Below are positions 1 through 11,441 of a stretch of 11,441 bases of DNA, piece after piece; position 1 is the first letter of the stretch, and the number at the start of each line of letters is the position of its first letter. Source of the stretch: a virus. Its lineage: Duplodnaviria; Heunggongvirae; Uroviricota; Caudoviricetes. The stretch lies in the IMG/VR virus record IMGVR_UViG_3300023487_000022. One strand, given 5' to 3'. Below the pieces are notes generated by a model. It was not told where the DNA came from. It worked only from the letters and a program-made list of their open reading frames with translations, and searched no databases. The position numbers and the translations under genes were made by a program.

Positions 1-40
1 TGATGTCACGCTGAAAATGCCGGCCTTTGAATGGGTTCAT
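1..40 (-). CDS. tnpA: IS26 transposase, first 13 codons only (cut by window edge)
   Basis: ATG at 40..38 on the minus strand, reading MNPFKGRHFQRDI, 38 bp inside the terminal IR. Confidence 0.85.
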   Translation of the reverse strand, partial: MNPFKGRHFQRDI

Positions 41-103
41 GTGCAGCTCCATCAGTAAAAGGGGATGATAAGTTTATCACCACCGACTATTTGCAACAGT
101 GCC
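1..103 (-). mobile_element. IS26 (IS6 family) terminal 103 bp; the element continues beyond the window start
   Basis: Reverse complement of 90-103 is GGCACTGTTGCAAA, the IS26 terminal inverted repeat. Reverse complement of 1-40 is ATGAACCCATTCAAAGGCCGGCATTTTCAGCGTGACATCA, the start of the IS26 transposase gene. Recognised from memory of the IS26 sequence, not from a search. Confidence 0.88.
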
Positions 104-152
104 CTTTTCTCTCCTGGCCTTCAGCAAGACCCAGCACCAATGAAGTATTCAT
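104..152 (-). pseudogene. 5' fragment of a gene truncated by the IS26 insertion
   Basis: Minus-strand ATG at 152..150 preceded by GGAG 5 nt upstream. It reads MNTSLVLGLAEGQERK and runs straight into the IS26 IR at 103. It sits directly downstream of a copy of the Y-type upstream module, as the intact ORF at 313-642 does. Confidence 0.4.
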
Positions 153-159
153 CACCACT

Positions 160-226
160 CCGTAAACAAATTGTTTTCTCAATGGCGTAAATAATACCAG
201 TGTAAAAACGGCTACAAAGCATATTG
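160..226 (-). promoter_or_regulatory. Y-type conserved upstream module, copy 1, with AAACAAATTGTTTT dyad at 164-177
   Basis: About 80% identical by eye over about 67 bp to 651-717; both copies lie immediately upstream (minus strand) of a start codon. Confidence 0.55.
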
Positions 227-312
227 CTCAGGCACATGAATTATCTAAAGGTGGTTCTTCCCTGCGGCTACAGAGAAGTTAAGCCAGCAGGCGGTGCTGG
301 CTTTGGTTGGGC

Positions 313-642
313 TTACGCGAATAACTCAAGGAATTCCTGCACGTCCCAATGCTGGACAAGGTGAAGATAGAGCTTAGAAATCACGTCATTCTCGCTATCG
401 CATGTGAAGTAGTACTTCTGGCTGCGGTTGTATGTGTCCACACAAAATTCGCTCATATCCATAAAGTCAGCATCTTCACCCATGTCGCAAATAATCAAAG
501 CAGGAGCATCATCACGAGTCATCAGCTCAAGCACCCAGCGCGAATTGATCAGCGTGGAAGACCAACCTTCTAACTCATAAAACTGGTCAAACTCTTTTTG
601 AGTCATTTTCTTGATTTGGTTGATGTCGATATTTGCAAACAT
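313..642 (-). CDS. Hypothetical small acidic protein (109 aa)
   Basis: ORF-track frame 313..708; start chosen at the internal ATG at 642 because AAGGA lies 7 nt upstream. Product MFANIDINQIKK...; by hand count about 21 D/E versus 8 K/R. No family recognised. Confidence 0.65.
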   Translation of the reverse strand: MFANIDINQIKKMTQKEFDQFYELEGWSSTLINSRWVLELMTRDDAPALIICDMGEDADFMDMSEFCVDTYNRSQKYYFTCDSENDVISKLYLHLVQHWDVQEFLELFA

Positions 643-650
643 AAAGCAAT

Positions 651-717
651 CCTTAAACATGTTGTTTTCTGAATTTCGTAAACAATACCAGTAAGAAAAC
701 GGCCACAAAGTATATCG
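651..717 (-). promoter_or_regulatory. Y-type conserved upstream module, copy 2, with AAACATGTTGTTTT dyad at 655-668
   Basis: Direct repeat of 160-226; abuts the RBS and ATG of the 313-642 CDS. Confidence 0.55.
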
Positions 718-781
718 TTACGGTGCTGCGCTGCCCCGGAGGTTAATAGCGACAAAAGCCACCGTGCTGGTGGTCTCACTC

Positions 782-1000
782 TTAATCTTCGTCGTCCGGG
801 AACTCGCTGTGTACCGCGTCCACCAGCTCCCGCTTTTCATCTTCACTAAGCAGGTGCCAGATATCCTTCCCTTTGGGCGATTCCCCTTCTACCGGGACGA
901 ACGACCACAACTTGCGGTACAACTCCGGCCCCACTGCATCCAGACACTCAGCCAGGGAATCCACACCCCACACCTCAACCGTCACAGGCATCTTAATCAT
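782..1000 (-). CDS. Hypothetical small acidic protein (72 aa)
   Basis: ATG at 1000 with GAGGA 7 nt upstream. Product MIKMPVTVEVWGVDSLAECLD...EFPDDED; about 18 D/E versus 7 K/R by hand count. Confidence 0.7.
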   Translation of the reverse strand: MIKMPVTVEVWGVDSLAECLDAVGPELYRKLWSFVPVEGESPKGKDIWHLLSEDEKRELVDAVHSEFPDDED

Positions 1001-1032
1001 CTCTTCATCCTCACTTCGTTTATATAACGTCT

Positions 1033-1088
1033 AAACATGTTGTTTACTTATTGGTGTTATTGTCGCAATAAGACAAAGGAGAAAAAGG
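1033..1088 (-). promoter_or_regulatory. X-type conserved upstream module, copy 1 (AAACATGTTGTTTA dyad 1033-1046; TTATTG-TCG-CAATAA dyad 1057-1071)
   Basis: About 80% identical by eye to 3801-3856; both lie immediately upstream of minus-strand start codons (1000 and 3788). Confidence 0.55.
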
Positions 1089-1387
1089 ATTTTATGTCGT
1101 GAAAGCCAGGCTGGGCAGTGAATATCCGGGAACGACACGGGAACCAGTATTTACGATATTCTGCTCTACGCGCGCCGCAGGGCTGGTGGGCAGAATTTTC
1201 TTCTCCCCGAAAACCTACTGAAATCGCTTGAGACCCGAGGATGGTCTGGCAGAATGGAGTTCAGCAGCTGCACGAGAGGGAACGACACTCCCTCGCGATT
1301 TTCAGGCGAGCGAAGAGCAAGGCGCACTCCCGAAGATTTCCCGCACTGCTCCCGCAGTCGTCCCTCGCTCTGTACCGGGATGTACCC

Positions 1388-1513
1388 GTTTCCCGACCGG
1401 CAGCCAGCCTTTTCCCGGTTCGTATAGCGGGATTCCCACCGTTTCCCTGAAAAACCTCCAGCCTTTTCCCTGCGGCGACGTTCCCGTTCCTGAAAAGGGA
1501 CATGGCTTTTCCC
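1388..1513. repeat. Array of about 7 degenerate direct repeats with TTTCCC core, roughly 21 bp period
   Basis: TTCCC cores at about 1390, 1412, 1433, 1443, 1466, 1481 and 1509. Three copies share AGCCTTTTCCC-G (1407-1418, 1460-1471, 1504-1516). Confidence 0.5.
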
Positions 1514-2588
1514 TGGATGGCTCGAAGGCTGACCGAAGGGGTGGATAGGGACGTTACGGGGGATGAAAACTATGGCTTGAATTTATACGAAGAAAGTGGC
1601 GATACCCCTCCTTCCCTTCCCACTTATACCTCCCACGAATTTTCTCTCTTATGTGGGCATAAACCTTCTCTCTGATAACGCTCAATACGGCGACTATTCC
1701 TGTGGGTGAAATGGGTGGTTTGTTCTTTCTACCGGCATATGTGGTTTCGTTCTTCTTGAGGTGGTTCTTCTCTGTGTTTTCGTCAGGGTTGTTCTCGTTG
1801 TTTTGGTGATTGTTCTTCTCTGTGTATGGAGTAATGGCAGGTGGGCGATTCCTTTCGTTATTGTATTTGAGTTGTTTGTCTTGAGAGCGTGAAAGGCTTT
1901 TGTGGTTATTTGTGTATTGAGTAATGGCGTTTCCCCGCGAATGTTCTGTTTCGTGTCTTTGGGGATTGAGGGAGTCCTTGCGGTAACAGGCTTCGTTAGA
2001 GTTTCAGTGGTTCTGGTGTTTATTCGCTGTTTGGGGAATGGCGTGTAGTGGGTATCGCATGTATGAATGTTTCGAGTTGCCTGTGAAAGTTAGGTTGGTT
2101 GTCCGGTAGCCTGGGAAGAAGAGGTGGGTCTTTTCAGTAGCCTGCCATAAAGAGGTTGGTTGTTTTTGGGAATGTGGGTAATGGCGTCTCTGGGTTTCCT
2201 GTGGGTGTGGTTAGCTTGTTTTCTTGTGTCTGAAAACAACTTGTTTAGATGTCCAATATAACGCAACGGGAGCGCTTCTGAGCGTGTCTGTTTTTGGGTG
2301 GTATCACGAGTCGTTTTTGACGTTTTGGTCGCAGGGAGATGGATTCTGGTACGCTGGATTTGGGTATAAGAGATGGCGTGCGAAAACATCAACTTTTTAG
2401 ACCAAATCAGGGGAAAGCGTTGACTTTACGTTGATGTGTTATTTATTTGTTTTCTTATGGGTGTAATTGGCTTAAATGCCTTGTCACGCCTGGGATTGAG
2501 TGGGGTAGGGTGGTGGGGAAAGTGGCGATCAACGGACTCTTATAGAAATCCTCAATTTGTGACCGCCAATATCAACGAGCTGCAGCCG

Positions 2589-3158
2589 TTAGTTGTTCAG
2601 ATAGGCATCCGGAACGCGCACATAAAAGTTTCTTTCGCCGGTCAGTTCCAGAGTAACGTTTATGTCGTTGCCGTTATCCAGCGTAGCCGTCGCTTTATAG
2701 AACTTGTCCGTCACCTTGTCCTGAATTGTCACCTTCATACATTTCGGCGCTGTGGTTCCGTTATTCTCTTTCAGAATGGTCGTTACGAGAGGACAAGCCG
2801 CTTCTTCAAGAGCAACCTCTTCCTGGTGTGGGATACCGATGAAGATGTTACCAGCAAGCAACGCGACGATTACGATAAAAGGAAGTCGACTGCCTTTTGT
2901 AACGGTGGCACGTTTCCAGAGATAGACCGGAAGGAGAAATACTCCCCACAGGATGGCCGGTGGTTCATACCCTGCATCAGACAATGCCATTCTGTCAGCC
3001 ACCAGAAAGCCGAGTCCAGCGACTCCACCTATCACTATTGCATAATTCAAATACTCATCTGGCGGTGCTCCAAAGAAGAGAGGCAGTAAAGCTAGAAGCC
3101 ACGCATAAGCATTATTCAGAGGTTTTGTTTGTTGGTTCTGGGTTTCCATCACATCCAT
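2589..3158 (-). CDS. Hypothetical membrane protein (189 aa), hydrophobic N-terminal half and soluble C-terminal domain
   Basis: ORF track; hydrophobic stretches (WLLALLPLFF, AIVIGGVAGLGFLV, ILWGVFLLPVYLW, FIVIVALLAGNIFIGI). Start uncertain between ATG 3158 and ATG 3149; RBS weak. The overlapping plus-strand ORF 2436-3089 has a non-protein-like composition. Confidence 0.65.
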   Translation of the reverse strand: MDVMETQNQQTKPLNNAYAWLLALLPLFFGAPPDEYLNYAIVIGGVAGLGFLVADRMALSDAGYEPPAILWGVFLLPVYLWKRATVTKGSRLPFIVIVALLAGNIFIGIPHQEEVALEEAACPLVTTILKENNGTTAPKCMKVTIQDKVTDKFYKATATLDNGNDINVTLELTGERNFYVRVPDAYLNN

Positions 3159-3234
3159 TCCATCAGATTAAAAAGCGGTACTATGTTACCAATTTTCTTC
3201 GCTTATATGACATGATTACTCAACGAGTGGGCGA

Positions 3235-3555
3235 TCACCATTCCCATGCAGGTAGCCCATCCACCAGCTCGGCGTCGCAATCGAAGTGAACCACGTCAAA
3301 GCCGTCATCCAGTATGGTCTGTATGTTGGAGATCGCCTCTTGGGAAATGCCGTACTCACGCAGTTCTTCCTTCCAGTCATTCCCTCGCATTCCAGCACGA
3401 ACAATCCAGCCGTACTGTGTACCGTGTACCCAATTCAACCCGCGATCAGTAAGTGGGTCGAAGCAGGCAATGGGTAGCCGTTCTGAATCCGCTGCCGTTA
3501 CGTGGGCGGTGCTGATCACCGCCGTCTTATACGATTCGGTGATTTTCAGCATCAT
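3235..3555 (-). CDS. Hypothetical acidic protein (106 aa), translationally coupled to the upstream gene
   Basis: ATG at 3555 overlaps the TGA of the 3552-3788 CDS (ATGA overlap); AAGGAG upstream. About 18 D/E versus 8 K/R by hand count. Confidence 0.72.
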   Translation of the reverse strand: MMLKITESYKTAVISTAHVTAADSERLPIACFDPLTDRGLNWVHGTQYGWIVRAGMRGNDWKEELREYGISQEAISNIQTILDDGFDVVHFDCDAELVDGLPAWEW

Positions 3556-3788
3556 GCCTTCTCCTTTGGAAACAGAATGTTGGCCGTGTCAGAAATGACA
3601 TCCCAATTCACGCCGACGCTGGTGTCATGGCACTCTTTGATTTTTCGCAAAACCTGAACGCACTGTTCGTCAGTCAGGTCTGGTCGCACTTCACCTACAT
3701 CTTCCTTGTGCCACATCACCATCAGCAGCGGCTCGTCTTCTGGGTAGTTCTCCAGCTTTTCGATGATGTCTTTTGCGGTTCCGAACAT
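3552..3788 (-). CDS. Hypothetical small acidic protein (78 aa)
   Basis: ATG at 3788 with AAGGAG 6 nt upstream; the track start at 3806 is a TTG that contains this SD. Product MFGTAKDIIEKLENYPEDEPLL... Confidence 0.72.
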   Translation of the reverse strand: MFGTAKDIIEKLENYPEDEPLLMVMWHKEDVGEVRPDLTDEQCVQVLRKIKECHDTSVGVNWDVISDTANILFPKEKA

Positions 3789-3800
3789 GATCAACTCCTT

Positions 3801-3856
3801 AAACAATTTATTTTCTTATTTGTGTTATTATCTCAAATAACAAAAGGTAGAAAACA
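3801..3856 (-). promoter_or_regulatory. X-type conserved upstream module, copy 2 (GTTATT-N6-AATAAC dyad 3824-3841; AAACA/TGTTT-like dyads at 3801-3814 and 3851-3865)
   Basis: Homologous to 1033-1088; lies between the 3874-4140 and 3552-3788 genes. Confidence 0.55.
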
Positions 3857-3873
3857 AAATGTTTAAGGGATGA

Positions 3874-4140
3874 CTAGGTGAGTTTGAAGTCGTCTATGTC
3901 ATCAACAAACTCCATATACCTGGCTTCGACACTCGACAATCTGATCAGATACGCAAGCCCGTAACTTAGTGAAGTGGGTTGCTCCAGCACAAATTCGAAC
4001 CCATCCTCATGCGTTTTACCAAGCCAGAACCCCCCACCGTATTCTTTTTCACGTTGGAAGAAAACGAACTGTCCGGGTATTAGGTGCTTGAGTGCTTCGC
4101 CCCTATAGACGATCACATATTTAGAATTCTTGCTGCCCAT
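3874..4140 (-). CDS. Hypothetical protein (88 aa)
   Basis: ORF-track frame 3874..4197; start chosen at ATG 4140 because GAGG lies 6 nt upstream, while the ATG at 4197 has no SD. Confidence 0.6.
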   Translation of the reverse strand: MGSKNSKYVIVYRGEALKHLIPGQFVFFQREKEYGGGFWLGKTHEDGFEFVLEQPTSLSYGLAYLIRLSSVEARYMEFVDDIDDFKLT

Positions 4141-4228
4141 TGCTCGCCTCGCAATACTGTACATATAAACAGTATTATTTATTACGGTACTGGTCAACTT
4201 TACGGGTTAATTGAATAACAAGATGGTG

Positions 4229-4243
4229 AAAACAATTTGTTTT
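4229..4243. promoter_or_regulatory. Perfect 15 bp palindrome AAAACAATTTGTTTT in a divergent promoter region; candidate operator
   Basis: Seven-base arms around a central T, between the minus-strand start at 4140 and the plus-strand start at 4328; the strongest copy of the recurring AAACA-N-TGTTT dyad. Confidence 0.5.
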
Positions 4244-4327
4244 GGCACTTGAGATTTTGCAAATCGCACCTACATGGAAAACGGCAATTTTTGAAACCTG
4301 ATTTGACCCATGTGAAAGGAGGAAACG

Positions 4328-4531
4328 ATGAAGACCTATGATCGCAACCGTAACGCTATCACTACCGGCAGCCGAGTGATGGTGGCAACGAATGGTGCAA
4401 CGGGAGTCATCAAGGAAATCTGCGGAGAAGGCAAATCAGAAGAACAATTACGCCGCTCTGACTGCGTGTCTATCGAAGGTGTGGAAGGTCTATTCTGCCC
4501 AATGGATTTGGTTCGCCTGGGGTTCCATTAA
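4328..4531 (+). CDS. Hypothetical small protein (67 aa); candidate regulator
   Basis: ATG at 4328 with AGGAGG SD 5 nt upstream. It is the only plus-strand gene in the island and is transcribed divergently from the palindrome at 4229-4243. Confidence 0.72.
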   Translation: MKTYDRNRNAITTGSRVMVATNGATGVIKEICGEGKSEEQLRRSDCVSIEGVEGLFCPMDLVRLGFH

Positions 4532-4558
4532 TTTCACCATCTATAAAACAAATTGTTT

Positions 4559-4579
4559 AAGGCCACAACTAGTGGCCTT
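4559..4579. terminator. GC-rich inverted repeat AAGGCCAC-AACTA-GTGGCCTT between convergent genes; possible bidirectional terminator
   Basis: 8 bp stem, 5 nt loop. The T-rich tract on the minus-strand side is offset by about 6 nt, so terminator function is uncertain. Confidence 0.4.
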
Positions 4580-4586
4580 ATCTGGC

Positions 4587-5285
4587 TTACGGAACAGCGG
4601 TAATCAGATCGCAAATGCCTGTTTTAGTTAAATCACTATTCAGCTTCTGAAAATTGGCATTCAGCATTGCGGTATGTATTCGATTCTCAAGTTCAAAGAA
4701 GAGACCGATCTTGCCCTCTTTGGCTGCCACCTTCTTCCAAATATTCACCTGGTCATCTGCGATACGACTTGCGCAGGTGAACAAGAACGAACTCCCTCTG
4801 GGAAGGGATGTCGTGCTGTAGTATTCACCGTCAACTTCAATATACTTAGCTCGGAATGACTCCAGAGTTAGCTTTTTACCGCTCTCAGCCTGCTTTGTGT
4901 CTGCCTTGCTTGTCTTTTCCTGAACTTCAGGCTGTTTCTGCACAGGCTTTGGTGTCTCATTGACCACCGCAGTGCTGGCCGAACCATCCAAACTCTTGAG
5001 GCCATTAATTTGGATTAGATAAGCCAACTCCAGAGCCTTATCACCAGTGAGTTTTCCACGCATACTTACCCATTGACGCTGAACCGTCTTTAAGGCGTCT
5101 GCGTCCCCCGGGTTTGCTTTGAGTGCGTTGGAATAGGTAGAGCTAAGTTGTTCGTCTAATTTTGACAGGCGTTCGTTATCGCAGATTTTGTGTTCGATTT
5201 CTGCCGAAGCCTTTTGGCAGTCAAAGCTGGCTGCAAATACAGCCGGCGATGCCACCAACAATGATGCCAGTAGGATATTTTTCAT
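4587..5285 (-). CDS. Secreted protein with DUF1311 (LprI-like) N-terminal domain (232 aa)
   Basis: ATG at 5285 with GGAG upstream. Signal peptide MKNILLASLLVASPAVFA with an AXA-type cleavage site, followed by the Cys/Leu pattern FDCQKASAEIEHKICDNERLSKLDEQLSSTYSNALKA...QRQWVSMRG, which matches DUF1311 from memory. C-terminal domain unassigned. Confidence 0.78.
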   Translation of the reverse strand: MKNILLASLLVASPAVFAASFDCQKASAEIEHKICDNERLSKLDEQLSSTYSNALKANPGDADALKTVQRQWVSMRGKLTGDKALELAYLIQINGLKSLDGSASTAVVNETPKPVQKQPEVQEKTSKADTKQAESGKKLTLESFRAKYIEVDGEYYSTTSLPRGSSFLFTCASRIADDQVNIWKKVAAKEGKIGLFFELENRIHTAMLNANFQKLNSDLTKTGICDLITAVP

Positions 5286-5323
5286 ATTCACTCCATAAAT
5301 ATAAAAGCGCCTGACTATAGCAC

Positions 5324-5539
5324 TTAACCAATTGCTTCTCTCATCTGATTGTGAAGCTCTTTCAGCCCATCACGTACCGCGTTCATGATACGTTCCAGGG
5401 ATTGGTATCTGGGGTTTGGCACTGTTGGCCAACCGGCATACCACGGATCGTCACCAAACAGACTCAGCAGTTCGTTACCGACACCGAAACAGCAGCAACT
5501 TTCTTTTACGTCATCAGCGTTTTCTGCCTCGTCCCACAT
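5324..5539 (-). CDS. Hypothetical protein (71 aa), possibly the C-terminal remnant of a longer disrupted gene
   Basis: ORF track; in the same frame as 5774-6505 but separated from it by stops. The frame is open upstream of the ATG as far as 5626. Confidence 0.4.
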   Translation of the reverse strand: MWDEAENADDVKESCCCFGVGNELLSLFGDDPWYAGWPTVPNPRYQSLERIMNAVRDGLKELHNQMREAIG

Positions 5540-5773
5540 ATTGCGGGCCTGCTCTGCGTCGATTTCTCTCTCTCCCTGCGCAACTTTATGATTTCGGATT
5601 TGACGAAAAGCAGGTTTGCGTCGTTGTCATCGTCGACCGTACTGAAGTGGCACACTGAATTTGGCCGTCTGTAATGGGCAGATCCGGCAACTGTTTAAAA
5701 ACATCCATCTGCTCATGGATACGCAGAAACCACCTTGCCAGCTCCATCTGCTCACCGCGGGTGAGGAGATTAT

Positions 5774-6505
5774 TCAGCGGGGACTTAACAAAAGCGGAGA
5801 CTCGCTCGACAAGCCGGCCAGTGAACCAACATCCCCCCAATTCTGGTGTGTCAGCGCCCCGATACTTACCACTCCAGGCAGCACTTCTTTGTGGTTGTGG
5901 TAGTGCCCGGACAACAATAAACGGAAGCCGATATCTTTCAGTTCCTGTGCGTCGATGCCGACATCGGGCATGGTGGGGATCGCTTTGTTGATTGAGGTAT
6001 GTACAACAACATCATGGTTGTCACCATCCAGCCCGGAACGCAGCGTTTTGAGATCGCTGATAAGTTCTGCGTAGTTATTACGCCAGCTAATCAGATGGAC
6101 GGTTACGTCGCCCATTTTGATGGAATGAGGACGTTTGCCGCAGACGATTTCCACACCGATTGAGCGCAGAGAGGCTGCTGCATTGGCGCTGTATACGGAA
6201 TCGTTGGTTTCGAGGTCGTGGTTGCCAGCCAGCATTACCACCTTGAGACCCAACTCTTTGATGATCCACTCGTAAGTTTCGGTCACGAAATGCAGAACGG
6301 AAGGTGATATAGCACCGCGAACATGGAAGGTATCACCAGCTACCAGCATGTTCTTACAGCCAGCAGCTTTCATCGCTTTGGCCGCCTCCTTCGTAGCGTC
6401 CAGTTGGATCTCCAGCCGAGAGTTAAGCCCGTCAGCGTTTGTTGTCGCAAAAGCATCCCAACGATGATAATGGGGATCTGATATTACCCCGTATGGCAAT
6501 GTCAT
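5774..6505 (-). CDS. Calcineurin-like metallophosphoesterase (243 aa)
   Basis: ATG at 6505 with AAGGA upstream. Ordered motifs ISDPHYH, GDTFHVRG, GNHD and GHYHNH match the metallophosphatase signature (D-x-H, GD-x-x-D/H-R-G, GNH[DE], GH-x-H). Confidence 0.75.
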   Translation of the reverse strand: MTLPYGVISDPHYHRWDAFATTNADGLNSRLEIQLDATKEAAKAMKAAGCKNMLVAGDTFHVRGAISPSVLHFVTETYEWIIKELGLKVVMLAGNHDLETNDSVYSANAAASLRSIGVEIVCGKRPHSIKMGDVTVHLISWRNNYAELISDLKTLRSGLDGDNHDVVVHTSINKAIPTMPDVGIDAQELKDIGFRLLLSGHYHNHKEVLPGVVSIGALTHQNWGDVGSLAGLSSESPLLLSPR

Positions 6506-8288: not shown

Positions 8289-9344
8289 ATGAGCGTAAAC
8301 GACAATAAAAACATTGCGATAAGCGAAGCATTTTCCGAAACAGACAAAAAGACCGGCGAAGTTGTTACGTTAGTTCCTAACACCAACAACACAGTTCAGC
8401 CTGTTGCTCTGATGCGTCTTGGTCTCTTCGTTCCGACGCTGAAATCGACATCCAGGGGTAGAAAGGGGCAAATGGTCTCTATGGACGCCTCCGCTGAACT
8501 CAAACAGCTGTCTCTGGCCAAAGCCGAAGGGTACGAGGATATAAGGATTGCTGGTCTTCGTCTTGATATGGATAACGATTTCAAAACATGGGTGGGCATC
8601 ATCCACGCGTTCGCCAAGCACAAGGTTGTTGGTGACACCGTCACGTTGCCGTTCGTCGAGTTCGTCAGACTTTGTGGCATACCAACAGCCAGATCGTCCG
8701 CGAAGTTACGTAAGCGCCTGGACAGCTCTCTAAGTCGTATCGCCACAAACACCATCTCATTCCGCAGCAAAGGCTCTGAAGAGTATTACGTTACGCACCT
8801 TGTGCAGACGGCAAAGTACAGTACCAAGAATGACACGGTCGAACTGAAGGCCGATCCTAAGATTTTCGAACTTTACCAGTTCGACAAAAAGGTGCTTTTG
8901 CAACTTCGGGCCATCAACGAACTCTCCAGAAAGGAATCCGCGCAGGCGCTCTACACCTTCATTGAAAGTTTGCCACCAGACCCGGCGCCAATCTCATTGG
9001 CTCGCTTACGCGCCAGACTTAACTTAACCAGCCGCACCATTACCCAGAATGCGACAGTCAGGAAGGCGATGGAGCAGCTGCGAGAGATCGGCTATCTCGA
9101 TTACACTGAAGTGAAACGCGGCAGCTCGGTCTACTTCGTCATCCACTATAGACGGCCGAAGTTACGTTCGGCACTGCCGCCATCTATGGCTACGCCTGAA
9201 GAGCCAGAAGATATCTTGCCAGGTGATGATCCGGAGGACATTATCGATGTTGCCCCTGAAGAAAAAGACGGGGAAATGGTCATGTTGAGCAAGGAAGAAC
9301 TGGCGATTCTCGAAGAGCTGCGCAAGGCAAAGGCTCGCAAATAG
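8289..9344 (+). CDS. repA: Iteron-binding replication initiator RepA, RepFIB/P1 RepA family (351 aa)
   Basis: Product contains [57 protein letters not shown] and [10 protein letters not shown], which I recognise as conserved in P1 RepA and RepFIB RepA. Flanked on both sides by iterons. Confidence 0.9.
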
Positions 9345-9953: not shown

Positions 9954-10166
9954 TCAGTGGATTTTCTTCAGCAGACCCCAGAGTGTCCCGGCCTTCGTTG
10001 CGAGCTTACCTGTTTCCGGATCGTACATGTGCCATTCACGTCGCTGGTGGACAATATACCCATCTTCACGTTCCAGTCGTTCCAGTACGCCGGACTGCTT
10101 GAACCCTTTGGCACGCCAGTAGCCGCTTGTTTTTTCGATTTCCAGACCTGTCAGTGTAACCGCCAT
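9954..10166 (-). CDS. Hypothetical small protein (70 aa), translationally coupled
   Basis: ATG at 10166..10164 overlaps the TGA of the upstream gene (TGATG); the track start at 10169 is a TTG. Product MAVTLTGLEIEKTSGYWRAKGF... Confidence 0.62.
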   Translation of the reverse strand: MAVTLTGLEIEKTSGYWRAKGFKQSGVLERLEREDGYIVHQRREWHMYDPETGKLATKAGTLWGLLKKIH

Positions 10167-10716: not shown

Positions 10717-10992
10717 TCACTCAAAAGTGCTGATACCCAAAATGCGCTCAAGATGGGCCGCGTCTTCATCGCTTACCAGCATTGTGTCGTCGACGTACCA
10801 GCAGCTACCGTTGTGCCAACAAACACCGTCATCATCGATATAAATAGAATCCGCATCCATTCCTGTGTATTCAACTAGATTGCGTTCAATTGCCGCTTGA
10901 ATTTCTTCATCGTTCAGCCCGTCGCACTTGATCATGAACAACGGGTAAACGTCATAGTCGGTACTAGATGAAATGCGAACCAAAGTCTTCAT
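10717..10992 (-). CDS. Hypothetical small, very acidic protein (91 aa)
   Basis: ORF-track frame 10717..11055; start chosen at ATG 10992 with AAGGAG 7 nt upstream. About 20 D/E versus 5 K/R by hand count. Confidence 0.62.
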   Translation of the reverse strand: MKTLVRISSSTDYDVYPLFMIKCDGLNDEEIQAAIERNLVEYTGMDADSIYIDDDGVCWHNGSCWYVDDTMLVSDEDAAHLERILGISTFE

Positions 10993-11172
10993 GTGCTTTC
11001 TCCTTGTTGGTAAGTACTTATCTATCTTAATGCGCGCTATAAGGCGCACAATCATTGTGTTCAGGCTGGTGGAAAGAACTTCTCCAGCGTGTGGTTGATA
11101 GCCTTATCAATGTGCATCAGGTGCCAGACGACCATATCTTTGCTTCCAATGCCGCGAGTGTAGATGAAGTGG

Positions 11173-11389
11173 TCAACAAAAACTGGCCACCGAGTTAGAT
11201 TTTTTCCAGTATCGATTTTCCGATTCATTTGGGGGTAATCCACCGTTATATTCGTGCGGTCTTAGTGCGCTGTAATATCCAACGATATAGTCCGTTATGG
11301 CGTGAGCTGCCTCGCTGAAGCTTACGTAACCCACCACCGGCATCCATTCGTTCTTCAGACTCCTGAAGAAGCGTTCCATTGGGCTGTTG
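11173..11389 (-). pseudogene. C-terminal fragment of an IS3-family transposase (OrfB tail), truncated upstream
   Basis: Reads ...SVNSPMERFFRSLKNEW...YYSALRPHEYNGGLPPNESE, resembling the conserved IS3-family DDE-domain tail (DNAxxESFFxxLKxE ... RxHxxLGxxxPxEFE). An in-frame stop at 11390-11392 sits just upstream of the conserved motif, and no other frame continues the homology. Confidence 0.55.
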
Positions 11390-11441
11390 ACGCTCCTATG
11401 TCAAGAGCGGGCGATTGGCATATGTGAGATCTGATAAAATC

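What the first reader, a model, noticed from the sequence alone, without database searches (positions are those of the whole stretch)
104..4580. Island of small, very acidic proteins with shared upstream modules: candidate anti-defence or DNA-mimic locus
Seen in sequence: at least six minus-strand genes of 70-110 aa (313-642, 782-1000, 3235-3555, 3552-3788, 3874-4140, plus the IS26-truncated start at 152), most with good SD sequences and a large excess of Asp/Glu over Lys/Arg by my hand count. Each is preceded by one of two conserved upstream module types. Established knowledge: small acidic proteins of this size include DNA mimics and anti-restriction proteins (Ocr and ArdA are the classic examples), and such genes cluster in early-expressed regions of plasmids and phages. 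Inference: this is an uncharacterised anti-defence or establishment island. I recognise none of the proteins as a known family.
Basis: partly seen in the sequence, partly recalled or inferred. Interest (0 to 1): 0.8.

Follow-up and report, generated by a model that had tools for sequence, protein, structure and literature searches.

The report
Phage-plasmid accessory gene cassettes, shared operator
This is the accessory-gene region of an SSU5-type phage-plasmid, where small, mostly acidic proteins of unknown function each sit behind a copy of one promoter-operator module used across the whole element (one gene is under SOS/LexA control instead), so they are reasonable but unproven candidates for host-takeover or anti-defence factors.

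Summary
The five complete genes are real and under purifying selection, and four of them are strongly acidic. The shared upstream modules also exist.

- The replicon is a non-conjugative SSU5-family phage-plasmid, so there is no oriT or leading region.
- The "modules" are one element: previous gene's terminator, extended -10 promoter (TGnGATAAT), 13-bp palindrome AAACA-N3-TGTTT at about +8..+20, then SD and ATG. A second palindrome often lies exactly 51 bp upstream.
- The palindrome is not specific to the island. SSU5 has 14 perfect copies (0.04 expected), including upstream of terS-like, parA, ant and a DNA methyltransferase gene.
- g6 (3874-4140) instead has a conserved LexA box (4155-4174), the only strong one in SSU5.
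- The IS26-truncated gene encodes a basic protein in intact relatives.
- One third of the island is a conserved 1.5-kb non-coding stretch.

Anti-defence remains plausible but untested. Interest is moderate.

The parts
1..103 (.). End of IS26 (terminal inverted repeat GGCACTGTTGCAAA at 90-103). It truncates the island and, in this lineage, replaces the homologues of SSU5_114 to SSU5_122.
   Evidence: (IS26 transposase annotated next to it in L001/L002), comparison with L003/L009.
104..152 (-). First 16 codons of an SSU5_113-like gene cut by IS26. The intact homologue is a basic 103-104 aa protein, not an acidic one.
156..224 (-). Promoter-operator module (type B): extended -10 TGGTATTAT at 191-199, palindrome AAACAATTTGTTT at 164-176, SD GGAG.
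   Evidence: (D3).
313..642 (-). g1, 109 aa, net charge -13, pI 4.2, phrog_7645. A narrow family found only in SSU5-like elements. It is a cassette inserted between the SSU5_112 and SSU5_113 homologues.
647..715 (-). Second copy of the type B module (81% identical to 156-224): extended -10 TGGTATTGT at 682-690, palindrome at 655-667, SD AAGGA.
759..773 (-). Intrinsic-terminator-like hairpin after g2 (it also contains a Chi octamer on the + strand).
782..1000 (-). g2, 72 aa, net charge -11, pI 4.3, phrog_6757, the SSU5_112 homologue.
1033..1067 (-). Promoter-operator module (type A) of g2: extended -10 TGCGACAAT at 1059-1067, palindrome AAACAACATGTTT at 1033-1045.
1068..2588 (-). Conserved non-coding stretch (72-85% identity in all SSU5-like loci). 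It is CA-rich and G-poor on the gene strand, with internal repeats, a perfect palindrome at 2234-2246 and a module-like promoter with a degenerate operator at 2440-2470. Function unresolved.
2589..3158 (-). g3, a 186-189 aa protein with hydrophobic segments (probably membrane), not acidic, phrog_12486. It has no module of its own and is probably the third gene of the g5-g4-g3 unit. Other relatives carry different genes at this position.
3235..3555 (-). g4, 106 aa, net charge -10, Pfam DUF5983 C-terminal domain (E 7e-22). Its start overlaps the g5 stop (ATGA), so the two are translationally coupled.
3552..3788 (-). g5, 78 aa, net charge -8, phrog_10258. It belongs to a large phage family (2393 clusters at 50% identity) with no Pfam model. 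RefSeq labels it DUF1380, which was not reproduced here.
3801..3868 (-). Full two-operator module of the g5 unit: distal palindrome at 3852-3864, extended -10 TGAGATAAT at 3827-3835, proximal palindrome (1 mismatch) at 3801-3813, SD AAGGAG. The two palindromes are 51 bp apart.
   Evidence: (I1).
3874..4140 (-). g6, 88 aa, net charge -3, phrog_2100, the SSU5_103 homologue. Also present in P22-like Salmonella phages.
4155..4197 (-). SOS-type promoter of g6: -35 TTGACC (4197-4192), 17-nt spacer, -10 TACTGT (4174-4169) lying inside the LexA box TACTGTTTATATGTACAGTA (4155-4174).
4230..4242 (.). Perfect palindrome AAACAATTTGTTT upstream of the g6 promoter, in the divergent region shared with ydfZ.
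4328..4531 (+). ydfZ (Pfam YdfZ, E 2e-30), the only gene on the opposite strand. It is flanked by inverted copies of a ~30-bp element that includes the palindrome (4221-4255 and 4527-4562).
   Evidence: I13, I14.
4546..4579 (-). Terminator-like hairpin after the LprI-like gene (4559-4579), followed directly by a perfect palindrome (4546-4558). This is the 'distal operator' arrangement seen at many cassette boundaries.

Best explanation
The region is the variable accessory-gene array of an SSU5-family phage-plasmid, next to its immunity region and cut here by IS26.

Shown from sequence and comparison: each small gene or gene pair is a separate unit. It consists of the previous gene's terminator hairpin, an extended -10 sigma-70-type promoter (TGnGATAAT or TGgTATTAT) with no good -35, a 13-bp palindrome AAACA-N3-TGTTT at about +8 to +20, and an SD and ATG within about 15 nt. 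A second palindrome often lies exactly 51 bp upstream, over the -35 region. The same module heads about 20 transcription units across the SSU5 genome.

Inferred: the palindrome is the operator of one element-encoded dimeric DNA-binding repressor, not identified here. That repressor would hold these otherwise strong promoters down in the plasmid state. They would then fire together when the DNA enters a cell that lacks the repressor, or on induction.

g6 is wired differently. A conserved LexA box covers its -10, so it should be switched on by DNA damage. By analogy with 186 Tum, N15 AntC and Gifsy GfoA it may be the SOS input (an antirepressor-like trigger).

Inferred with lower confidence: the acidic proteins g1, g2 and the coupled pair g5-g4 are cytoplasmic effectors. 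They would act by binding host proteins, either as inhibitors of defence or restriction or for other host takeover. They are not enzymes and not DNA binders.
For: Identity of the element:
- 86% DNA identity and synteny with phage SSU5.
- IncFIB repA in the window, and related plasmids typed non-mobilizable.

The palindrome and module:
- Palindrome enriched in the window: 9 hits against 0.78 expected.
- 14 perfect copies in SSU5 against 0.04 expected.
- Present at 2-7 per 10 kb in all 20 SSU5-like IMG/VR loci, and absent from 20 of 21 unrelated viral contigs.
- Fixed geometry: 84 unique instances have a -10-like hexamer exactly 13 nt upstream (59 are GATAAT), and 66 of those 84 have TG at -15/-14.
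- 32 of 36 neighbouring palindrome pairs are 51 bp apart.
- Variant palindromes are not compensated, which points to base-specific recognition.
- Terminator hairpins precede the modules.
- The regulon also heads terS-like, parA, dnaB-like, ant and DUF4942 DNA methyltransferase genes.

Cassette behaviour:
- g1 was inserted together with a duplicated 69-nt module.
- Gene content differs between relatives while the modules are kept.

LexA control of g6:
- The box has 2 mismatches to the 20-mer consensus, with 0 expected by chance.
- It is the only strong box in the 103-kb SSU5 genome and is conserved across diverged relatives.
- Precedent for LexA-controlled small antirepressors lying outside the immunity region: PMC3121763.

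The proteins:
- Acidity is significantly higher than in the rest of the element's small proteome.
- All are under purifying selection.
- None has a Pfam enzyme or DNA-binding domain.
Against: - No expression data, no mapped transcription start site and no identified regulator. Operator function is inferred from position and conservation only.
- The same module precedes parA, which must be expressed in the plasmid state, and the head-gene operon. A simple 'early genes only' reading is therefore too narrow.
- The candidate regulators next to the island (FljA-like SSU5_121, HTH-like SSU5_116) are deleted in this window's lineage, yet the plasmids persist. Either the regulator lies elsewhere or repression is dispensable.
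- No similarity to any known anti-defence protein.
- Neighbouring genes (an LprI-like protein with a hydrophobic, signal-peptide-like N-terminus by eye, YdfZ, and membrane protein g3) look more like lysogenic-conversion cargo.
- Small phage proteins are often acidic for unrelated reasons.
- g6 homologues occur with the same LexA box in P22-like phages. From my own knowledge, not checked here, P22's repressor is RecA-cleavable, so such phages may not need an SOS antirepressor.
Confidence: 0.5

Rival explanations
1. Lysogenic-conversion 'morons'. The cassettes are autonomous units expressed from the resident plasmid-prophage for the benefit of the host or the element (exclusion of other phages, envelope protection, stress functions), not at entry and not against host defences.
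For: The terminator-promoter-gene autonomy is the classical moron layout. The neighbours are an LprI-family protein with a hydrophobic, signal-peptide-like N-terminus by eye, YdfZ and membrane protein g3. The array is retained in IS26-rearranged plasmids that have lost adjacent regulators. The same module drives parA, a plasmid-state gene. The g6 cassette moves between unrelated phages as a unit.
Against: A conserved palindrome placed over +8..+20 and over the -35 region argues for repression rather than constitutive expression. The same module heads the terS-like/head operon and replication genes, which should be silent in lysogeny. The acidic proteins show no signal peptide or transmembrane segment by eye.
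Confidence: 0.25
2. The palindrome is not a DNA operator. It would instead act in the mRNA leader (a small hairpin abutting the SD, bound by an RNA-binding repressor such as the FljA-like protein), or as a cassette-boundary or recombination signal that drives shuffling of modules.
For: The palindrome abuts the SD in the 5' leader. SSU5 and its relatives encode an FljA homologue next to the island (Pfam Flag1_repress, E 3e-81), and FljA blocks fliC mRNA translation (PMC2652032). Cassette gain, loss and an inverted ydfZ are bounded by palindrome-bearing repeats. One cassette carries the palindrome into a P22-like phage.
Against: Distal copies lie upstream of the promoter or between convergent genes, outside any leader (4546-4558, 3852-3864). 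The 51-bp phasing of pairs fits DNA binding. The stem would be only 5 weak pairs, and variants are not compensated. Five-bp arms with a 3-bp spacer are too short for known site-specific recombinases (own knowledge). The FljA-like gene is deleted here without obvious consequence.
Confidence: 0.12
3. Conjugative-plasmid establishment island in a leading region next to oriT, with ArdA- or Ocr-like DNA mimics.
For: Small acidic proteins with repeated upstream modules resemble the IncN CUP-controlled ard genes and leading-region islands (own knowledge). RefSeq labels g5 'DUF1380', a family known from enterobacterial plasmids.
Against: The element is an SSU5-type phage-plasmid. Related records are typed non-mobilizable, with no relaxase or oriT nearby. 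The DUF1380 label is not reproduced by Pfam. There is no sequence or fold match to ArdA, Ocr or KlcA among PDB entries.
Confidence: 0.03
4. Toxin-antitoxin or addiction components: the acidic proteins would be antitoxins neutralising basic partners such as the SSU5_113-like protein.
For: DUF5983 genes lie next to cbtA toxins in E. coli prophages (PMC10790755). An acidic g1 sits directly upstream of a basic 103-aa protein in intact relatives.
Against: Each gene has its own promoter and terminator rather than forming an autoregulated bicistron. There are no PADLOC or Pfam toxin or antitoxin hits. In the window the basic partner is destroyed by IS26 while g1 is kept. g1 is absent from many relatives that keep the basic gene.
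Confidence: 0.05

Closest known systems
Global repressor regulons of plasmids with repeated promoter-operator modules (IncP RK2 KorA/KorB with the kil/kle loci; IncN pKM101 CUP repeats with ArdK controlling ardA/ardB). Recalled from own knowledge.
   Same: A short palindromic operator is repeated at many promoters around the replicon. Strong promoters are held down by an element-encoded repressor. The targets include partition genes and clusters of small proteins of unknown or anti-restriction function. The expected outcome is a burst of expression on entry into a new cell.
   Different: The element is a phage-plasmid rather than a conjugative plasmid. The operator sequence (AAACA-N3-TGTTT) differs. 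The regulon also includes virion and replication genes. The regulator is unidentified, and no ArdA or ArdB homologue is present.
Phage P1 C1 repressor with operators scattered around a phage-plasmid genome (own knowledge)
   Same: A phage-plasmid whose many separate transcription units each carry a copy of one operator.
   Different: P1 operators are asymmetric 17-mers, and P1 late genes are controlled indirectly through Lpa. Here the operator is a 13-bp palindrome, often paired at 51 bp, and it also lies directly upstream of the head-gene operon and parA.
LexA-controlled small antirepressors (186 Tum, N15 AntC, Gifsy GfoA/GftA; PMC3121763)
   Same: g6 is a small gene outside the immunity region. 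It is preceded by terminator-like and palindromic sequences, its promoter is covered by a consensus LexA box, and that box is the only strong one in the element.
   Different: No sequence relationship to these proteins was shown. Homologues with the same box occur in P22-like phages. Binding to a repressor is untested.
Phage 'morons' (autonomous promoter-gene-terminator insertions; own knowledge, see also PMC7067206)
   Same: Each cassette has its own predicted promoter and is separated by terminator hairpins. Cassettes are gained, lost and exchanged between phages.
   Different: These cassettes share one operator and form a co-regulated array. Classical morons have unrelated promoters and are expressed in lysogeny.
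DNA-mimic anti-restriction proteins Ocr and ArdA
   Same: Small size and a large excess of Asp/Glu (net -8 to -13 in 72-109 aa).
   Different: No sequence similarity for any of the five proteins, and no fold similarity for g4 and g5. g4 is an alpha/beta domain (DUF5983) and g5 a small helical domain. Neither model was checked for DNA-like charge patterning.

Membership tests
SSU5-family phage-plasmid | DNA identity and gene order shared with Salmonella phage SSU5 / pHCM2-type elements | tested here: met
   86% identity over 53-5717 with conserved order SSU5_101-113. 20 IMG/VR relatives of ~100-115 kb.
SSU5-family phage-plasmid | IncFIB-type RepA replicon on the same molecule | tested here: met
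   repA at 8289-9344. PLSDB typing of matching plasmids is IncFIB.
Conjugative-plasmid leading region / establishment island | Location next to oriT on a plasmid with a relaxase | tested here: not met
   Matching plasmids are typed non-mobilizable. SSU5 annotation shows no relaxase or T4SS, and the island lies beside the immunity region.
Ocr / ArdA DNA-mimic anti-restriction proteins | Sequence homology to Ocr, ArdA or other solved anti-defence proteins | tested here: not met
   phmmer/hmmsearch of g1, g2, g4, g5 and g6 against all PDB sequences found no credible hit. No Pfam or PADLOC hit.
Ocr / ArdA DNA-mimic anti-restriction proteins | Fold similarity | tested here: not met
Ocr / ArdA DNA-mimic anti-restriction proteins | High net negative charge | tested here: met
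   Net -13, -11, -10 and -8 for g1, g2, g4 and g5; only -3 for g6.
Ocr / ArdA DNA-mimic anti-restriction proteins | Inhibition of type I restriction-modification enzymes | not testable with these tools
   Needs an in vivo restriction-alleviation assay.
Pfam DUF5983 (PF19419) | HMM score above the gathering threshold | tested here: met
   g4: 77.9 bits against a cut-off of 27, E 7e-22, covering profile positions 2-90 of 90. The structural neighbours are DUF5983 phage proteins.
Pfam DUF1380 (RefSeq label of g5) | HMM match to the Pfam model | tested here: not met
   No Pfam hit at E no higher than 0.1 for g5, and none at E no higher than 0.01 among 42 distant relatives.
LexA (SOS) regulon | CTGT-N8-ACAG box close to the 20-mer consensus, overlapping a promoter | tested here: met
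   TACTGTTTATATGTACAGTA at 4155-4174, with 2 mismatches and 0 expected by chance. It overlaps the -10 of TTGACC-17-TACTGT. It is conserved in relatives.
LexA (SOS) regulon | LexA binding and DNA-damage induction | not testable with these tools
   Needs EMSA and a mitomycin C induction experiment.
LexA-controlled antirepressors (Tum / AntC / GfoA) | Binds and inactivates the element's lysogeny repressor | not testable with these tools
   Only the regulatory layout matches. No homology was shown.
Repressor-controlled regulon (operator function of the palindrome) | Over-represented, position-fixed palindrome overlapping core promoter elements | tested here: met
Repressor-controlled regulon (operator function of the palindrome) | An identified protein that binds the site and represses transcription | tested here: inconclusive
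   The candidates (SSU5_034, 113, 116, 121) have no informative domains except FljA-like 121 and a weak HTH in 116. Genes 116 and 121 are deleted in this lineage.
Toxin-antitoxin system | Bicistronic autoregulated pair with a recognisable toxin | tested here: not met
   No toxin or antitoxin domain. The genes have separate promoters.

The most novel reading that the evidence does not exclude
At least one of g1, g2 or the coupled g5-g4 pair would be a new family of anti-defence or host-takeover inhibitor, possibly a DNA or protein mimic. It would be released in a burst from a previously undescribed SSU5-wide palindromic operator regulon when the phage-plasmid enters a naive cell. g6 would be the element's SOS-triggered antirepressor. 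This would explain why SSU5-group elements, including pHCM2 of S. Typhi and plasmids of XDR Shigella sonnei, appear almost devoid of known anti-defence genes.
Probability: 0.3. Interest if true: 0.7.

Novelty: new member of a known kind. Interest (0 to 1): 0.5.

Why it matters
SSU5-type phage-plasmids are common in clinical Salmonella, Shigella, E. coli and Klebsiella. The proteins here each occur on hundreds to more than 1000 sequenced contigs, yet all are annotated as hypothetical.

DefenseFinder-type screens find almost no known anti-defence genes in this group.

The work here supplies three concrete handles:
- A defined 13-bp operator with a fixed promoter geometry. It marks about 20 transcription units and can be used to find the regulator and to predict co-regulated cargo in any SSU5-like element.
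- A single conserved LexA box that points to the probable SOS input of the element.
- A short list of conserved, selected, acidic proteins to test against restriction, BREX, CRISPR and other systems.

If none of them is anti-defence, the array still shows how accessory cassettes are exchanged between phage-plasmids and lambdoid phages.

Tried and rejected
- **Family scans.** NCBIfam and PADLOC scans of ten window proteins, including g1-g6, gave nothing useful.
- **Multicystatin match.** The g1 match to multicystatin 4lzi (E 4e-5) is rejected. The score is the sum of three weak repeats with individual E-values of 11-350, spanning domain boundaries.
- **Rfam.** A scan of the whole window gave only chance-level miRNA and leader hits.
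- **Non-coding stretch.**
  - Folding of the best-conserved block (2230-2580) gave z = -1.5, so there is no support for a structured RNA.
  - DnaA boxes are not enriched, so there is no support for an origin from that criterion.
  - TRF found only weak short arrays.
- **Conserved g5 + DUF5983 pair.** Rejected: no DUF5983-like ORF lies near g5 homologues in 21 environmental viral contigs.
- **Host-factor site common to enterobacterial phages.** Rejected: the palindrome is absent from 20 of 21 unrelated contigs and occurs once in a 50-kb P22-like genome, only inside the shared g6 cassette.
- **Identifying the regulator.** Pfam and PDB searches of SSU5_034, 113, 116, 117 and 121 did not identify it.
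- **Literature.** Searches for the motif, SSU5 regulation and pHCM2 transcriptomes found nothing.

Full report
**What the window is.**
The window is part of an SSU5-family phage-plasmid.
- It matches many E. coli IncFIB plasmids at 99-100% identity, and these are typed non-mobilizable.
- Positions 53-5717 match Salmonella phage SSU5 at 86% identity with the same gene order, SSU5_101 to SSU5_113.
- Positions 1-103 are the end of IS26 (IR at 90-103).
- Comparison with SSU5 and with the intact plasmid pJH51-3 shows that IS26 has replaced the homologues of SSU5_114 to SSU5_122. It has also cut the SSU5_113 homologue after 16 codons.
- At about 5811 the island is joined to a truncated metallophosphoesterase and the repA region.
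- There is no relaxase, T4SS or oriT context.

**Checking the observation.**
All the stated minus-strand genes exist at the stated coordinates, and each has an SD-like sequence.

| Gene | Coordinates | Length (aa) | Net charge | pI | PHROG |
|---|---|---|---|---|---|
| g1 | 313-642 | 109 | -13 | 4.2 | phrog_7645 |
| g2 | 782-1000 | 72 | -11 | 4.3 | phrog_6757 |
| g4 | 3235-3555 | 106 | -10 | 4.4 | phrog_5003 |
| g5 | 3552-3788 | 78 | -8 | 4.5 | phrog_10258 |
| g6 | 3874-4140 | 88 | -3 | 5.3 | phrog_2100 |

- They are real genes. PHROG E-values run from 1e-30 to 1e-75, and dN/dS is 0.04-0.27 against diverged relatives.
- The acidity is more than a general property of small phage proteins. In SSU5 the ten small island proteins have a median pI of 4.5, against 8.1 for the 49 other small proteins of the genome (Mann-Whitney p = 0.001).
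- Three corrections are needed:
  - The truncated gene's intact homologue is basic (pI 10.2).
  - A 186-189-aa membrane protein (g3, 2589-3158) lies inside the range.
  - About 1.5 kb (1068-2588) is non-coding.

**The upstream modules.**
- It occurs 9 times in the window (7 perfect), all between 164 and 4558, against 0.78 expected. One of the two 1-mismatch hits (3570-3582) lies inside the g5 coding sequence and is probably chance.
- In the complete SSU5 genome there are 14 perfect copies against 0.04 expected, and 22 with at most one mismatch.
- These lie not only in the island. They also sit upstream of the terS-like gene at the head of the virion operon, parA, a dnaB-like helicase, a cobT-like gene, nrdB, ant and a DUF4942 DNA methyltransferase.
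- All 20 SSU5-like IMG/VR loci carry 2-7 copies per 10 kb. 20 of 21 unrelated viral contigs fetched in the same search have none.

**Geometry of the module.**
Aligning 231 unique instances gives a fixed layout:
- a GC-rich hairpin with a T-run (the previous gene's terminator);
- then TGnGATAAT, where 84 instances have a -10-like hexamer exactly 13 nt before the palindrome, 59 of them are GATAAT, and 66 of the 84 have TG at -15/-14;
- then AACACCAAYAAGA, the palindrome, AAGGAG and ATG.

With a start site about 7 nt after the hexamer, the palindrome covers roughly +8 to +20.
- Many promoters have a second palindrome upstream. 32 of 36 such neighbouring pairs are exactly 51 bp apart, which puts the distal copy over the -35 region.
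- Variant palindromes carry uncompensated changes, which points to base-specific recognition rather than RNA pairing.
- In the window:
  - The truncated gene and g1 have the 'type B' variant (TGGTATTAT / TGGTATTGT; 156-224 and 647-715, 81% identical).
  - g2 and the g5 unit have 'type A' (1033-1067; 3801-3868, with both operators).
  - g4 is translationally coupled to g5 (ATGA overlap).
  - g3 has no module and probably belongs to the same unit.

I read this as an extended -10 sigma-70 promoter sandwiched by operators of one dimeric repressor, that is, an element-wide regulon. This step is inference. No expression or binding data exist, and I found no paper containing the motif.

**Who binds it?**
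- Candidates next to the island in SSU5 are an FljA homologue (Pfam Flag1_repress, E 3e-81) and a weak-HTH protein, SSU5_116.
- Both are deleted in this window's lineage, which nevertheless persists in several strains. The regulator is therefore more likely encoded elsewhere.
- One possibility is the small basic protein after the type-Ib ParA, whose own promoter carries the site. None of the candidates has an informative domain. The regulator remains unidentified.

**g6 is different.**
- Its promoter is TTGACC (4197-4192), a 17-nt spacer, then TACTGT. The -10 lies inside TACTGTTTATATGTACAGTA (4155-4174).
- That sequence has 2 mismatches to the 20-nt LexA consensus, and no match occurred in 200 shuffles.
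- The box is the only strong one in the whole SSU5 genome. It is conserved in diverged relatives even where the spacer has changed.
- The entire cassette (distal palindrome, -35, LexA box and gene) is also found between xis and eaA in P22-like Salmonella phages. There the palindrome occurs nowhere else in 50 kb. The cassette therefore moves as a unit.
- LexA-controlled small genes outside the immunity region are the known way in which 186, N15 and Gifsy prophages couple induction to SOS (PMC3121763). g6 fits that layout, but no homology or repressor binding was shown.

**What the proteins are.**
- g5 is labelled DUF1380 in RefSeq, but Pfam does not reproduce this.
  - A profile search finds 2393 clusters at 50% identity, either standalone or as a C-terminal domain. 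All 43 sampled members fall in phrog_10258, of unknown function.
  - Its model (pLDDT 77, four helices) has no significant PDB neighbour (Z no higher than 4.1).
  - The g5-g4 pairing is specific to SSU5 relatives.
- g1 is restricted to SSU5-like elements: 10 clusters, all at least 74% identical.
- None of g1, g2, g4, g5 or g6 matches any PDB sequence credibly, nor any PADLOC or NCBIfam model.
- All are named 'hypothetical' in every source, although they occur on hundreds to more than 1000 contigs.
- So the tested proteins are not members of Ocr, ArdA or other solved anti-defence families. Whether they work like them is open.

**Cassette behaviour.**
- Gene content between conserved modules differs among relatives.
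  - g1 is present in 12 of 25 loci and arrived with a duplicated module.
  - SSU5_111 is present in 7.
  - g3 is replaced by other genes in SSU5.
  - ydfZ lies inverted between inverted palindrome-bearing repeats.
- Proteins directly behind a module are mostly acidic, at -8 to -16. Two conserved basic proteins, an HD hydrolase and the methyltransferase are also found there.

**Best explanation and rivals.**
- Most likely (about 0.5): a co-regulated array of autonomous accessory cassettes. It would be repressed through the palindrome in the plasmid state and released together on entry or induction. g6 would be the SOS-wired exception. The acidic proteins would be cytoplasmic binders of host proteins. 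Within this, anti-defence specifically rates about 0.3.
- Main rival (0.25): lysogeny-expressed conversion genes. This is favoured by the moron layout, by the LprI-like, YdfZ and membrane-protein neighbours, and by the module's presence at parA.
- Less likely: an RNA-level or recombination role for the palindrome (0.12), toxin-antitoxin (0.05), and a conjugative leading-region island (0.03, essentially refuted).

**Novelty and interest.**
- The kind of system is known: a mobile-element regulon with repeated promoter-operator modules in front of small accessory genes. Examples from my own knowledge are the IncP kor regulon, the IncN CUP repeats and the scattered C1 operators of P1.
- This operator, its two-site geometry, its extent over an SSU5-type genome and the single LexA-controlled cassette appear to be undescribed.
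- The proteins are uncharacterised families.
- I rate it a new member of a known kind, with moderate interest (0.5). It is clinically widespread and directly testable, but there is no evidence yet for the anti-defence function that motivated the high first-stage score.

Noticed in passing
window 1068-2588 (read on the minus strand): A non-coding stretch of ~1.5 kb that is as conserved as the genes (72-85% identity in all SSU5-like loci), even where the flanking genes differ. On the gene strand it is strongly CA-rich and G-poor from about 2500 to 1750. A near-invariant G-rich block follows (GGTATAAGTGGGAAGGGAAGGAGGGGTATCGCC, about 1640-1600), then a GC-rich part with GGGAAAAGGCTGG repeated three times. 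It contains GCCATTAC..ATACACA motifs, three 30-nt repeats (2070-2163) that recur ~3.4 kb away in some relatives, and a module-like promoter with a degenerate operator at 2440-2470. There is no Rfam hit, no strong fold and no DnaA-box enrichment. It may be a long ncRNA, a lytic origin or iterons, or a Rho-loading region; this is unresolved.
   Followed up: partly
window 766-773, 820-827, 1182-1189, 3261-3268, 10043-10050, 11065-11072: Six Chi octamers (GCTGGTGG) in 11.4 kb against 0.39 expected from shuffles. SSU5 has 31 in 103 kb. This suggests selection for RecBCD protection in this element.
   Followed up: partly
window 4221-4255 and 4527-4562, flanking ydfZ (4328-4531, + strand): ydfZ is the only gene on the opposite strand. 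It is bracketed by inverted copies of a ~30-bp element that includes the palindrome, as if the cassette had been inserted or inverted between two operator sites.
   Followed up: no
L051 3290-3370 / L052 19976-20066 (Salmonella phage 29485): The g6 cassette, with the same palindrome, -35 and LexA box, sits between xis and eaA of a P22-like or lambdoid phage. L029 carries nearly the same version. This is evidence that a complete regulatory cassette has moved between phage-plasmids and lambdoid phages.
   Followed up: partly
window ~5774-6505 (breakpoint near 5811-5814): The metallophosphoesterase gene is shorter than SSU5_073 (243 against 361 aa), and database matches switch partners at 5811-5814. 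Relative to SSU5, the roughly 21 kb between SSU5_073 and the LprI-like gene SSU5_101 (about 64.3-86.9 kb, SSU5_074-100) has no counterpart here; the window carries only the small acidic gene g9 (5324-5539) in that interval. The window is therefore a recombinant or deleted derivative that brings the island next to repA.
   Followed up: partly
window 10717-10992 (-) and 5324-5539 (-): Two more small, very acidic proteins lie outside the finding's range. One is 91 aa with net charge -15 and pI 4.05, matching SSU5_065 in length, net charge and pI (a probable homologue; no alignment was made), and lies beyond repA. The other is 71 aa with net charge -7 (phrog_35423). Neither has the palindrome upstream in the window.
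   Followed up: no
L003 1444-1890 (SSU5_121) and homologues in Cyrano and pJN2-26: SSU5-like phage-plasmids encode a full-length homologue of FljA, the post-transcriptional repressor of phase-1 flagellin (Pfam Flag1_repress, E 3e-81). It lies next to the island and is deleted in this window's lineage by IS26. It could silence host flagellin or act on the element's own leaders.
   Followed up: partly
L007 ~15063-15082 (phage Cyrano), L024 ~6086, L026 ~6085: In the Cyrano-type relatives fetched here, which showed no g6 match, a consensus LexA box lies elsewhere; in Cyrano it lies directly upstream of a gene annotated as a LexA-like S24 peptidase. This suggests alternative SOS wiring in different branches of the family.
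   Followed up: no
window 3552-3788: The RefSeq product name 'DUF1380 domain-containing protein' for g5 could not be reproduced with current Pfam. The protein instead belongs to a large phage family (2393 clusters at 50% identity; conserved W-H-x-E-D-V ... R-P-D-L-T-D-E-Q ... H-D-A-x-x-G-(I/V)-N-W-D-V-I) that has no Pfam model.
   Followed up: yes
window 11173-11441: The C-terminal fragment of an IS3-family transposase ORF lies at the right edge of the window. With IS26 on the left, the window is bounded by insertion sequences.
   Followed up: no
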